DNA from: Caldivirga maquilingensis IC-167
Lineage (GTDB): Archaea; Thermoproteota; Thermoprotei; Thermoproteales; Thermocladiaceae
Assembly: GCF_000018305.1 (NCBI RefSeq)
Contig: NC_009954.1
Location: 1,230,001-1,262,000, forward strand
Length of the DNA: 32,000 nucleotides
Reading direction: 5' to 3'
This document shows, one piece after another, positions 26,589-29,416 of this stretch. The notes under the pieces were generated by a model that was not told the DNA's origin, searched no databases, and saw only the letters and a list, made by a program, of their open reading frames with translations. Every line of letters begins with the position of its first letter. Positions within the stretch are counted from its first letter, which is position 1. Position numbers and translations under genes: made by a program.

Positions 26589-28445
26589 TCAAATACCTAG
26601 GTATATAATTAGTATTATTGCTATGGTTAAGCCTAGTAGGATGCCGGGGATGGTGTTGGTCTTAGATTCTCTTAATGCGTTAATGGCTTTAGGTATTAGT
26701 GAGCCGGTTATTATTAGGGTGGTTAGTTCGGTGATGAGGCTTAGTATGGGTGAATGGTTGAAGATCACTGCACTAACTAACGTGAGTAGGATCACGGTAA
26801 TCCAGACGCCGGCAATCCTCCTCTTCACTGCTGATGCGAGGTAGAGTAGGGCGAAGAATAATGATAAACCCAAGTAATAATACATGTGCATTGGGAAGTA
26901 GAAGTAACGAAGAATAGTTAAAACACCAAACACTTGAGCCAAACACCAATAAAACACAGACACAGAACCAAACACAACAGCCAAGAAAACCCTAGCGGAG
27001 AAACGCCTAGGTGTGGGGCGTAATGTTATGGGGTTACTTATTGGGTGAAGTTTCGATAAGTGGCGTAACGTCTTGGAGGTACCCTGTGGGGTCGCCATCT
27101 CTATGGGTTTATTTTTAGCATCGATTATTCCTGGGAATACTATGGTGAGGATCCTTCGGGTGTCTGGGTTCAATCCATGTAGGTTGCCATAAATGGGTTT
27201 TTCAACATCAATTCCAGCCCTAATCAAGGCATCTTTAATCCTTTCACTAATCCTCATGATTAACTCCTCATTAACCTGGCAACCCCCTTCCCTAGCCTCG
27301 TTTAGGTAGGTGTTGATGATGTGGCTAACCCCAGATACAAGGGAACTTTCCGTGAAACCTAGTTTATTCCTTGCATAGAATGCTATGAAATTCCTGAGCT
27401 CAGCATCACCCCTAATGAATCTACACTTATTAGGTAGCATAAATACGTTAGGGAATACATGATGCAGCATCATACATAATCCTGGGGAGGCATCCTCTGG
27501 GCATGATCCAGTGACCCCAAGTCTGTTTACCCCTATGGCGTCGAGTTCATTAATAATGTAATTACTAATGACTTCGCCCACCGCTATGCATCCCATTAAC
27601 TCTGCCTTGTTTAATGCCGATGTTAATACTTCAATGGTCTCCTTAATAATGATACCAGGATCCCTAACACCCCTTAACCTCATTAAATGATCCTTATCAA
27701 CAATTAAACCAGGTGCACAATTACCCGGCGATGGCAATGTACCCACGCTAATGGGGTTTTCCCGTATGTTTTTCACACCTTCATAAATCTCACTCAGCAT
27801 GCTGCAGGGATTTAACTCATTATTGAATAGCTTCTCTAATACATAGTACCCATGTTTAGCCAGGTTATTGAGTGTTGGATCTATGGATTTAACACCTAGC
27901 AAATGCTTCATGGAGTATATTAAATAAATGAGCGAGTGATACAGGTAGTAGAAACATTGGTAGGTGTCTGAGAAGGACCCATCATTACCAATGCAATGGA
28001 GGACTGCAGCATCAATATACTTCTTACTCATCTCATCAATGTTAAATCTTTGCTTAAGAGTCGTCATTATATAGGCATCCTCAATAGCGAAGGTCAGGGC
28101 CCTAGCTACATTGGATTGTGGCCTAAGCCAAAGTTCAGGGCAGTTTCTTTGCCTATAATGGGCGAATTCCCTATGCATCAACTCATGTCTAAAAATCTTA
28201 ATCAATTCCTCAAAGCCCTCACTCCTAACATACTGCTCAAGGGCATTTGGATCAATTATTAACGTATCCTGAATCTCCGAGTAAGCCATAATGTAACTCT
28301 CCACAGAACCTGAAGATGCTACAACACACTTAATACCCAACTTAGTACAGGCATCAAATACACAATCCACCGATGAACCCCAAGTACTTAGCCTCTTTAG
28401 GAAGCATTCCCCAAGTTCATTATACACGGAGTTTTCTTGAGACAT
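26589..28445 (-). CDS. Cys-rich membrane-anchored protein with HExxHxxxxH zinc-metallopeptidase-like motif (function unknown)
   Basis: 618 aa. The N-terminal ~480 aa are soluble and contain ...SSGSVESYIMAY..LIIDPNALEQYV...LIKIFRHELMHREFAHY. This HExxHxxxxH context resembles the putative metallopeptidase domain of DUF2201/SprT-like proteins. I count 15 Cys. The C-terminal ~130 aa carry about 5 hydrophobic helices. The start lies 285 nt from the first CRISPR repeat, and the gene is divergent from the array. Confidence 0.7.
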   Translation of the reverse strand: MSQENSVYNELGECFLKRLSTWGSSVDCVFDACTKLGIKCVVASSGSVESYIMAYSEIQDTLIIDPNALEQYVRSEGFEELIKIFRHELMHREFAHYRQRNCPELWLRPQSNVARALTFAIEDAYIMTTLKQRFNIDEMSKKYIDAAVLHCIGNDGSFSDTYQCFYYLYHSLIYLIYSMKHLLGVKSIDPTLNNLAKHGYYVLEKLFNNELNPCSMLSEIYEGVKNIRENPISVGTLPSPGNCAPGLIVDKDHLMRLRGVRDPGIIIKETIEVLTSALNKAELMGCIAVGEVISNYIINELDAIGVNRLGVTGSCPEDASPGLCMMLHHVFPNVFMLPNKCRFIRGDAELRNFIAFYARNKLGFTESSLVSGVSHIINTYLNEAREGGCQVNEELIMRISERIKDALIRAGIDVEKPIYGNLHGLNPDTRRILTIVFPGIIDAKNKPIEMATPQGTSKTLRHLSKLHPISNPITLRPTPRRFSARVFLAVVFGSVSVFYWCLAQVFGVLTILRYFYFPMHMYYYLGLSLFFALLYLASAVKRRIAGVWITVILLTLVSAVIFNHSPILSLITELTTLIITGSLIPKAINALRESKTNTIPGILLGLTIAIILIIYLGI

Positions 28446-28729
28446 CCCACAACCACCTGGGGAACACGGGGGTTGTGTTGGTTTGTGGTTTTATTCTTGT
28501 TTGTGATTCCTGTCTTCTTTCATTGAGTCAAATATATATTCTATATATTGTCATTGGCACAGTTTCATTGTCATTCTTCATTTCTTTCAATTAGCACAAC
28601 CATTAGGGGGCTTCATTACACCATCAGCACAGGAATGTGAGTGCACAGAATGGTGGAATGGTTGTGCCAATGATAAACAAAACAGGCAGTAGAGAAAAAC
28701 TTAAAAACCCTAAAAAAGCCAATGTATTA
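28446..28729 (+). promoter_or_regulatory. CRISPR leader / divergent intergenic region
   Basis: An AT-rich 284-bp region on the side opposite the degenerate terminal repeat. It contains the palindrome AATATATA-ttc-TATATATT (28531-49), the direct repeats ATTGTCATT (28549-57 and 28568-76), GCACAG(G)AATG repeats (28626-28652), and a BRE/TATA at 28692-28707. Confidence 0.7.
28692..28707 (+). promoter_or_regulatory. CRISPR array promoter (GAGAAAAACTTAAAAA)
   Basis: A BRE-like purine run plus TATA box ends 23 nt before the first repeat (28730). It is identical over 16 nt to the tRNA-Tyr promoter at 7225-7240. Confidence 0.65.
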
Positions 28730-29356
28730 GAAAATCCCAAAAGGGATTAGAAAGTATGGAACACATGTATAGATAGAGACCTAGAAACCTACACGAGTTG
28801 AAAATCCCAAAAGGGATTAGAAAGTATCCGTTTAGTGTTCCCCTTGCTTCCACGTGGAGGATTCGAAAATCCCAAAAGGGATTAGAAAGTTCCCACTTCC
28901 TTAATGTACTCATAATTTTTTAATTATTTTTTGAAAATCCCAAAAGGGATTAGAAAGTTCTAAATAATTTAATGAATCCTGACACAAGTGACTTAATGAT
29001 TCCTGAAAATCCCAAAAGGGATTAGAAAGTCAAAATTGAGCGCACTAAAGATGGCGGTAGGTAATTAAGGAAAATCCCAAAAGGGATTAGAAAGCAATAT
29101 TATCATGGTTTATGCATAAAGTTACAGGTTCTAGAAAATCCCAAAAGGGATTAGAAAGGTAATTATATATATCACTTAACGTTACTTCGTTAAACGCGTA
29201 GGAAAATCCCAAAAGGGATTAGAAAGCTGATGTATCCATATTTCTGCAGAATAGAGTCCGGTATTTGAAAATCCCAAAAGGGATTAGAAAGTTTCCTTGA
29301 TTATTGACTTGACTACTTTCTCTGTTTCCCCGAAAATTCCAAGAGGGGTTAGAAAG
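28730..29356 (+). CRISPR. CRISPR array: 10 x 25-nt repeat GAAAATCCCAAAAGGGATTAGAAAG with 9 spacers (45, 40, 43, 47, 40, 39, 43, 40 and 40 nt)
   Basis: Repeats start at 28730, 28800, 28865, 28933, 29005, 29070, 29134, 29202, 29267 and 29332. The first nine are identical. The last (GAAAATTCCAAGAGGGGTTAGAAAG) has 3 mismatches, which marks the leader-distal end. The repeat ends in GAAAG like other crenarchaeal repeats and has a palindromic core AATCCC-AAAA-GGGATT. The spacers are unique. Confidence 0.97.
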
Positions 29357-29416
29357 GTAAGGAATAGAAGGTGTGAAAATGCTTAAAAATGATCCTTAAA
29401 GGGGATTAATTCTAGG

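What the first reader, a model, noticed from the sequence alone, without database searches (positions are those of the whole stretch)
28730..29356. Cas-less 10-repeat CRISPR array wedged between housekeeping genes, with a hairpin-capable repeat
The array is unambiguous: nine identical 25-nt repeats plus one 3-mismatch terminal repeat, with unique 39-47-nt spacers. No cas gene lies within 2.3 kb on the left or 2.6 kb on the right (tRNA-Arg and the 618-aa protein on the left, ileS on the right). The repeat ends in ...ATTAGAAAG, one base longer than the ATTGAAAG 8-nt tag of Sulfolobales repeats. Unlike most crenarchaeal repeats, it contains a perfect 6-bp palindrome with an A4 loop (AATCCC-AAAA-GGGATT). 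That leaves only AGAAAG 3' of the stem, so Cas6 cleavage at the stem base and cleavage 8 nt from the repeat end would give different handles. Several spacers are very AT-rich (for example 28890-28932 and 28958-29004), which suggests AT-rich viral or plasmid targets. I found no match to any spacer inside this window.
Basis: seen in the sequence. Interest (0 to 1): 0.6.

Follow-up and report, generated by a model that had tools for sequence, protein, structure and literature searches.

The report
Ordinary CRISPR array, cas genes elsewhere
This is a genuine but ordinary CRISPR array, one of nine scattered through an archaeal genome whose guide-cutting and interference genes lie about 325 kb away, and comparison with related repeats predicts the usual 8-nt guide handle.

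Summary
Ten 25-nt repeats lie at window 28730-29356: nine identical, and a terminal one with three changes. They are separated by nine unique spacers of 39-47 nt, and no cas gene is in view.

The "Cas-less orphan" reading does not hold for the whole genome:
- The 2.08 Mb genome has nine arrays with this repeat.
- All nine have the same ~200-nt leader, including this one (window 28530-28729).
- About 325-350 kb away lie one intact Cas6, a full type III-B (Cmr) module and a type I-A module.
- Cas1 and Cas2 were not found, so the arrays are probably frozen.

The 6-bp hairpin is real on paper (-7.4 kcal/mol at 37 C) but marginal at 85 C (+0.75). Across 18 related repeats, only the inner three pairs always form and covary. 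The outer two pairs are a lineage-specific extension.

The repeat aligns without gaps to a sister species' repeat and to the S. solfataricus AB repeat, whose cut was mapped at the base of the inner stem. That predicts a cut after repeat position 17 and an 8-nt handle with two substitutions, not a tail one base longer.

No spacer target was found, and no expression data could be obtained. Sibling arrays of this genome were noted earlier in this scan and also judged ordinary.

The parts
28441..28529 (+). Extended leader, shared only with a subset of the sister arrays (those at genome 1583k, 1611k and 780k). It abuts the start codon of the divergent 618-aa gene at 28445.
   Evidence: the leader of genome array 1583k aligns from window 28441, 1611k from 28465 and 780k from 28489. 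One search shows the alignment.
28530..28729 (+). Core CRISPR leader, conserved upstream of all nine arrays of the genome.
   Evidence: a MAFFT alignment of the 350 nt upstream of each array shows about 200 nt of near-identical sequence ending at the first repeat.
28701..28717 (+). Two A/T-rich boxes (28701-28707 and 28711-28717) conserved in all leaders. The first is centred about 26 nt before the first repeat and is inferred to be the TATA-like promoter element.
   Evidence: Conservation and position read. The promoter role is inferred from the usual archaeal TATA-to-start distance and was not tested.
28730..29356 (+). The CRISPR array: 10 repeats of 25 nt and 9 spacers.
28730..28754 (+). 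Repeat 1, used as the reference copy. Stem: 28733-28738 pairs with 28743-28748. The conserved inner stem is 28735-28738 with 28743-28746. The predicted Cas6 cut is after 28746, and the predicted 8-nt 5' handle is 28747-28754.
   Evidence: Fold, covariation, and homology of position to the mapped cut in the S. solfataricus AB repeat (PMC4041471). The cut site is inferred.
28755..29331 (+). Nine unique spacers interleaved with repeats 2-9: 28755-28799, 28825-28864, 28890-28932, 28958-29004, 29030-29069, 29095-29133, 29159-29201, 29227-29266 and 29292-29331.
   Evidence: No matches in the own genome (37), the phage collection (24), plasmids (44) or 120 genomes of the class (60). Cores of spacers 1-4 are absent from the viral contig collection (38-41).
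29332..29356 (+). Degenerate terminal repeat with 3 changes. It marks the trailer end and so fixes the orientation. The two changes in the stem turn standard pairs into G-U wobble pairs.
   Evidence: Pairs 6-17 and 7-16 for row own_terminal.
29357..29376 (.). Junction. Similarity to the ileS side of four sister species starts at 29376, 20 nt after the last repeat. To the left of this point, gene order differs.

Best explanation
This is a working-type CRISPR array served in trans. It is one of nine dispersed arrays in a complete 2.08 Mb crenarchaeal genome, which earlier notes of this scan name Caldivirga maquilingensis. All nine share one repeat and one leader.

Inferred mechanism:
1. Transcription starts at the conserved A/T-rich box at the end of the leader and runs rightwards on the + strand.
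2. The genome's single intact Cas6, 325 kb away, binds the short inner stem-loop of each repeat.
3. Cas6 cuts after repeat position 17, at the base of the conserved 4-bp inner stem.
4. The resulting crRNAs carry an 8-nt 5' handle (UUAGAAAG), which differs from the canonical AUUGAAAG by two substitutions.
5. [quoted passage not shown]

The two extra A-U pairs that make the stem look 6 bp long involve the first two handle bases. They are a lineage-specific extension that contributes little at about 85 C. Because Cas1 and Cas2 are missing and Cas4 is truncated, the array can no longer gain spacers.

Shown: the array, the shared leader, the cas gene inventory and the covariation of the stem. Inferred: transcription, the cut site, loading into effectors, and current activity.
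For: - Same repeat at nine loci plus one solo copy: 54 hits against 0 for the reversed control.
- A leader of about 200 nt is conserved upstream of all nine arrays.
- Cas6 matches PF10040 at 48.7 bits, above the 25-bit cut-off.
- Cmr1-6, Csx1, CARF proteins, Csa3, Cas7, Cas5a, Cas3' and Cas3'' are present.
- Cas1 and Cas2 are not found by Pfam or NCBIfam models in a 99.97% complete single-contig genome, while the controls do find them elsewhere.
- Cas4 is present only as its C-terminal half.
- Covariation over 18 related repeats: pairs 7-16, 8-15 and 9-14 form in 18/18, with CG, AU, GC and UG types. 83% of cells are paired, against 30-47% when partners are slid. 0 of 500 shuffles reach the observed score. 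Pair 6-17 forms in 11/18 and pair 5-18 in only 8/18.
- A sister species' repeat has the same 4-bp inner stem directly before a near-canonical 8-nt tail, aligned without gaps.
- The S. solfataricus AB repeat is 25 nt, its stem's 3' strand ends at position 17, and its cut was mapped to the base of that stem, giving an 8-nt handle (PMC4041471).
- Hairpin energy is -7.4 kcal/mol at 37 C and +0.75 at 85 C.
Against: - There is no expression or processing data.
- The Cas6 is very divergent from every solved Cas6: the best PDB sequence match has E = 0.0026, and it scores below the NCBIfam Cas6 cut-off. I did not verify its activity or its active site.
- One compensatory change at the outer pair 5-18 (A-U here, C-G in genome G011) hints that the extended stem may be under selection. 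That fits less easily with a cut inside it.
- The distance from stem base to repeat end is not constant in the family (6, 8 or 9 nt), so the stem base alone does not fix the cut.
- No spacer has a known target.
Confidence: 0.75

Rival explanations
1. Inert relic. The array is a leftover of a decaying CRISPR system and is no longer transcribed, processed or used. The surviving Cas6 or the effectors would be non-functional.
For: - The adaptation genes are gone and Cas4 is truncated.
- A second cas6 copy is frameshifted into four pieces.
- The surviving Cas6 scores below NCBIfam's cut-off.
- No spacer has a target.
Against: - Nine of ten repeats are still identical, and the leader is conserved across nine loci. 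Long neutral decay would not leave this.
- All Cmr and type I-A genes read as intact open frames with family matches.
- Two of the three changes in the terminal repeat keep pairing as G-U wobbles.
Confidence: 0.12
2. Non-canonical handle. Cas6 here uses the full 6-bp stem and cuts at its base, giving a 6-nt handle. Alternatively it cuts at the position equivalent to the start of the three-base ATT that precedes the tail, giving a 9-nt handle. Either way this lineage would have a crRNA tag of unusual length.
For: - The perfect 6-bp stem leaves only 6 nt at the 3' end.
- Pair 5-18 shows one compensatory A-U to C-G change in G011.
- Many Cas6 enzymes cut at the base of a stem (PMC4041471).
Against: - Only the inner 3-4 pairs are conserved across the family. 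Pair 5-18 forms in 8/18 repeats.
- Ungapped alignment to the sister species' repeat and the Sulfolobus AB repeat puts the mapped cut 8 nt from the end.
- 8-nt handles are found in nearly all Cas6-dependent type I and III systems reviewed in PMC5965381; that review notes one 13-nt exception in Synechocystis.
- The outer A-U pairs add little at growth temperature.
Confidence: 0.13

Closest known systems
Multi-array CRISPR-Cas systems of Crenarchaeota (Sulfolobus solfataricus P2 loci A-F with type I-A, III-A and III-B effectors; PMC4041471)
   Same: - Several dispersed arrays share a repeat family and are not contiguous with cas genes.
- Cas6 acts in trans and supplies more than one effector type.
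- Repeats are 24-25 nt with a short stem-loop directly before the last 8 nt.
- The AB repeat aligns to this one without gaps at 17 of 25 positions (my count from the sequence printed).
   Different: - There is one intact Cas6 instead of five paralogues.
- No Cas1 or Cas2 is present.
- The predicted handle has two substitutions relative to AUUGAAAG.
- The stem can extend by two A-U pairs past the predicted cut.
Repeats ending in the same 7-nt tail in other Thermoprotei (16 of 120 genomes, 13 of 39 genera)
   Same: - The length is 25 nt.
- The tail is the same.
- The core 3-bp stem sits at the same columns and shows covariation.
   Different: Most have only 3-4 bp, leaving 8 or 9 unpaired nt. 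The 6-bp perfect stem is seen only here and in three relatives (G018, G011, G023).
Thermus thermophilus Cas6A/Cas6B substrates (PMC3902920)
   Same: A weak 4-bp stem-loop lies just upstream of the cut site and is not expected to be stable without the protein.
   Different: These are bacterial, with 36-nt repeats and a G-C-only stem. The enzymes have catalytic histidines. I did not examine the active site of the Cas6 here.
True orphan CRISPR arrays (arrays in genomes with no cas genes)
   Same: No cas gene lies within tens of kb of the array.
   Different: This genome encodes Cas6 and two effector modules, and the array carries the same leader as the cas-adjacent arrays.

Membership tests
CRISPR array | Series of near-identical direct repeats of 23-50 nt at regular spacing | tested here: met
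   Ten 25-nt repeats, nine of them identical, with a period of 64-72 nt.
CRISPR array | Unique spacers of similar length | tested here: met
   Nine spacers of 39-47 nt, with no repeat of any of them in the genome.
CRISPR array | Conserved A/T-rich leader on one side, degenerate repeat at the other | tested here: met
   The leader is shared by nine arrays. The terminal repeat has 3 changes.
CRISPR array | Cognate cas genes in the genome | tested here: met
   Cas6, Cmr1-6, Cas7, Cas5a, Cas3' and Cas3'' at genome 1584-1610 kb, flanked by arrays with the identical repeat.
CRISPR array | Transcribed and processed into crRNAs | not testable with these tools
CRISPR array | Spacers match mobile elements | tested here: inconclusive
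   No match in phages, plasmids, the own genome (37) or 120 genomes of the class (60). Exact cores of spacers 1-4 are absent from IMG/VR (38-41). Spacers 5-9 were not scanned there, and no search of metagenomes that tolerates mismatches was possible.
Crenarchaeal type I-A / III-B repeat family (Sulfolobus AB-like) | 24-25 nt repeat with a short stem-loop whose 3' strand ends 8 nt from the repeat end | tested here: met
   The inner stem 6-9 / 14-17 ends at position 17 of 25. Core pairs form in 18/18 relatives with covariation.
Crenarchaeal type I-A / III-B repeat family (Sulfolobus AB-like) | Canonical 8-nt tag AUUGAAAG | tested here: not met
   The last 8 nt differ at positions -8 and -6. The same variant tail is widespread in the class.
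Orphan (cas-less) CRISPR array | No cas genes anywhere in the genome | tested here: not met
Complete adaptive CRISPR-Cas system | Cas1-Cas2 adaptation module present | tested here: not met
   PF01867, TIGR00287 and TIGR01573 give no significant hit in the complete genome. Cas4 is present as a fragment only.

The most novel reading that the evidence does not exclude
In this lineage Cas6 either cuts inside a helix that extends two pairs beyond the scissile bond, or produces a handle that is not 8 nt long. The type I-A and III-B complexes would then accept a tag that differs from the canonical one. The nine arrays would also be kept as a frozen immune memory in a genome that has lost Cas1 and Cas2.
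Probability: 0.15. Interest if true: 0.4.

Novelty: new member of a known kind. Interest (0 to 1): 0.2.

Why it matters
It matters little beyond annotation. It shows that an array without neighbouring cas genes should be checked against the whole genome before it is called an orphan. It also gives a concrete, testable prediction for the cut site (after repeat position 17) and the 8-nt variant handle of a repeat family found in about a third of the Thermoprotei genera sampled. The retention of nine perfect arrays after loss of the adaptation genes is a small example of CRISPR decay in progress.

Tried and rejected
- Organisms carrying the repeat: an exact scan of the species-representative genome collection gave 0 hits (the window's own genome may be left out of that collection).
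- Spacer targets, all negative:
  - Phage collection: only E = 0.6 hits to Yersinia phages.
  - Plasmids: only E = 0.6 hits.
  - Own genome: only 13-18 nt matches.
  - 120 genomes of the class: only repeat-to-repeat hits and short AT-rich matches to spacer 3.
  - Exact 22-25 nt cores of spacers 1-4 in IMG/VR: 0 hits each.
Spacers 5-9 therefore remain unscanned in IMG/VR, and no metagenome scan was made.
- Pfam PF01881 did not detect Cas6. It also misses the Sulfolobus control, so this was not informative. PF10040 does detect it.
- Genus-wide absence of Cas1 (0 of 6 genomes) was considered as a finding and rejected. The five sister genomes are drafts that also lack most other cas genes: Cas7 in 1/5, Cas4 in 1/5, Cas6 in 2/5.
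- Three related repeats with other loop lengths (G047, G054, G006) were left out of the column-wise covariation count. Taken singly, they show a 3-5 bp stem followed by 8 unpaired nt.
- The paper linking Caldivirga and CRISPR in a Taiwanese hot spring says nothing about Caldivirga arrays.

Full report
**1. The observation**

The region at window 28730-29356 holds ten copies of a 25-nt repeat. Nine are identical, and the last (29332-29356) differs at three positions. The period is 64-72 nt, and the nine spacers are 39-47 nt long. A pattern search of the whole genome gave 54 hits, against none for the reversed control. The flanks are also as stated: tRNA-Arg, a 618-aa ORF on the minus strand, and an ileS-like frame from 29417.

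**2. Not an orphan**

The window lies at 1,230,001-1,262,000 of a single-contig genome of 2,077,567 bp, 99.97% complete. Earlier notes of this scan name it Caldivirga maquilingensis; I did not test that name.

The same repeat, with at most one or two base variants, forms nine arrays plus one solo copy:

| Genome position | Repeats |
|---|---|
| 232.5k | 6 |
| 288.2k | 4 |
| 370.3k | 3 |
| 780.1k | 3 |
| 1258.7k (this array) | 10 |
| 1583.1k | 5 |
| 1588.5k | 12 |
| 1611.6k | 7 |
| 1700.2k | 4 |

Aligning the 350 nt upstream of each array shows about 200 nt of near-identical leader ending at the first repeat in all nine. In the window this is 28530-28729. A subset of the arrays shares similarity back to about 28441. 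The degenerate repeat at the far end and the leader together fix the orientation as + strand.

**3. The cas genes**

Between genome 1583.7k and 1610.4k, flanked by three of the arrays, I found:
- a C-terminal fragment of Cas4
- a 295-aa Cas6 (PF10040, 48.7 bits against a 25-bit cut-off)
- two CARF/ring-nuclease-like proteins and Csx1
- Cmr6, Cmr1, Cmr5, Cmr4, Cas10/Cmr2 and Cmr3
- Csa3, Cas7/Csa2, Cas5a, Cas3' and Cas3''

This array lies 325 kb from Cas6. A second cas6 copy next to the 1611k array is broken into four frames.

Cas1 and Cas2 gave no significant hit with Pfam or NCBIfam models, although the same searches found them in 7-8 control genomes. The system can therefore process and use guides but very probably cannot acquire new spacers.

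**4. The hairpin**

Alone, the 6-bp hairpin has -7.4 kcal/mol at 37 C. At 85 C it has +0.75 kcal/mol, and only about 13% of molecules would be folded. The growth temperature of about 85 C is from my own knowledge of the named species.

To see whether the stem is more than chance, I collected related repeats:
- A mismatch-tolerant search in 30 relatives found three.
- A search for any array whose repeats end in the same 7-nt tail found such arrays in 16 of 120 genomes of the class, 13 of 39 genera.
- A sister species of the same genus has large arrays with a 25-nt repeat of the same geometry and a near-canonical tail.

An ungapped alignment of 18 repeats was scored for the 6-bp structure:

| Pair | Repeats in which it forms | Pair types seen |
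|---|---|---|
| 9-14 | 18/18 | CG |
| 8-15 | 18/18 | UA, CG |
| 7-16 | 18/18 | CG, AU, GC, UG |
| 6-17 | 11/18 | UA, UG |
| 5-18 | 8/18 | AU, CG |
| 4-19 | 17/18 | AU, GU |

Overall, 83% of cells pair, against 30-47% when partners are slid by one to three columns, and no shuffle out of 500 reached the observed covariation score. Related sequences can inflate such numbers, but the double changes at pairs 7-16 and 8-15 occur in different lineages.

The core stem is therefore a real, conserved feature. The perfect 6-bp form is an extension seen only here and in three relatives.

**5. Where the cut falls**

The comparison resolves most of it:
- The inner 4-bp stem (positions 6-9 with 14-17) ends exactly 8 nt from the repeat end.
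- In the sister species the same inner stem directly precedes a near-canonical 8-nt tail.
- In several other genomes a 4-bp stem again precedes exactly 8 nt.
- The S. solfataricus AB repeat, printed in PMC4041471, is also 25 nt and aligns to this repeat without gaps. Its stem's 3' strand ends at position 17. [quoted passage not shown] - 8-nt handles are found in nearly all Cas6-dependent systems in the review read; it notes one 13-nt exception in Synechocystis.

I therefore predict a cut after position 17 (window 28746 in repeat 1) and the handle UUAGAAAG. In the ungapped alignment this differs from AUUGAAAG at positions -8 and -6, so it is not 'one base longer'. The change at -8 is what lets the stem extend by two A-U pairs.

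This is an inference; I put it at about 70%. Two points count against it: the single compensatory change at pair 5-18 in one relative, and the variable number of unpaired bases after the stem in the family (6, 8 or 9).

**6. Spacers**

None of the nine spacers matches elsewhere in the genome, in the phage or plasmid collections, or in 120 genomes of the class. Exact cores of spacers 1-4 are absent from the viral contig collection.

The nine spacers average about 0.35 GC, and all 42 unique spacers of the genome average 0.38, against 0.43 for the genome.

**7. Context**

In four sister species, similarity to the ileS side begins at window 29376, 20 nt after the last repeat. Upstream of that, three of them have a roughly 490-aa gene that this genome lacks at this site. 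The array therefore sits at a species-specific junction, which fits its being part of the variable genome.

**8. Verdict**

This is a genuine CRISPR array of an ordinary kind: one of many dispersed arrays of a crenarchaeal type I-A plus III-B system, served in trans. Earlier follow-ups in this scan reached the same view for sibling arrays of this genome. What I add is the family-wide covariation analysis and the resulting prediction of the cut site and handle. Interest is low. The only open points are the experimental handle length and whether the arrays are still used after the adaptation genes were lost.

Noticed in passing
all nine arrays of the genome (G000); in the window, spacers starting at 28755, 28825, 28890, 28958, 29030 and 29292: The first base of the spacer is T in 23 of 42 unique spacers, against 33% T overall in spacers (one-sided binomial p = 0.003, one of six positions tested). 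This may reflect a bias in how spacers were acquired or a fuzzy repeat-spacer boundary.
   Followed up: partly
G000 1583088-1583382 and 1700150-1700374: These two arrays share their leader and their first three spacers, the third being 5 nt shorter in the 1700k copy. One is therefore a segmental duplicate of the other.
   Followed up: no
G000 1583727-1583751 (L009:3727-3751): A solo repeat with only the last ~35 nt of the leader sits directly before a Cas4 C-terminal fragment. A mercury reductase and an ArsR-type regulator lie between two outward-facing arrays, where an adaptation module would be expected.
   Followed up: partly
G000 1610518-1611258, minus strand (L010:12518-13258): A second cas6 copy is broken into four pieces in three reading frames, 34-56% identical to the intact Cas6, and lies beside the leader of the 1611k array.
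   Followed up: partly
genus-level genomes G001-G005: Cas1 (PF01867) was not found in any of the six genomes of the genus, but was found in 18 of 25 genomes of the four other genera of the family. The five sister genomes are drafts that also mostly lack Cas7, Cas4 and Cas6, so this is probably an assembly effect. G005 nevertheless has arrays of more than 20 repeats.
   Followed up: partly
window 28560-28600 and equivalent positions in all nine leaders: A ~35-nt block in the middle of the leader, about 130-170 nt before the first repeat, is nearly invariant in all nine leaders and more conserved than its surroundings. It could be a protein-binding site.
   Followed up: no
window 29357-29376 and L054-L056: Gene order breaks 20 nt after the array. 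Three sister species have a ~490-aa gene directly upstream of ileS whose only relative in this genome is a 35%-identical paralogue at 1082k.
   Followed up: partly
window 28710-28913 (-) and 28373-28594 (+): ORFs of 67 and 73 aa overlap the array and the leader. They are almost certainly not genes.
   Followed up: no
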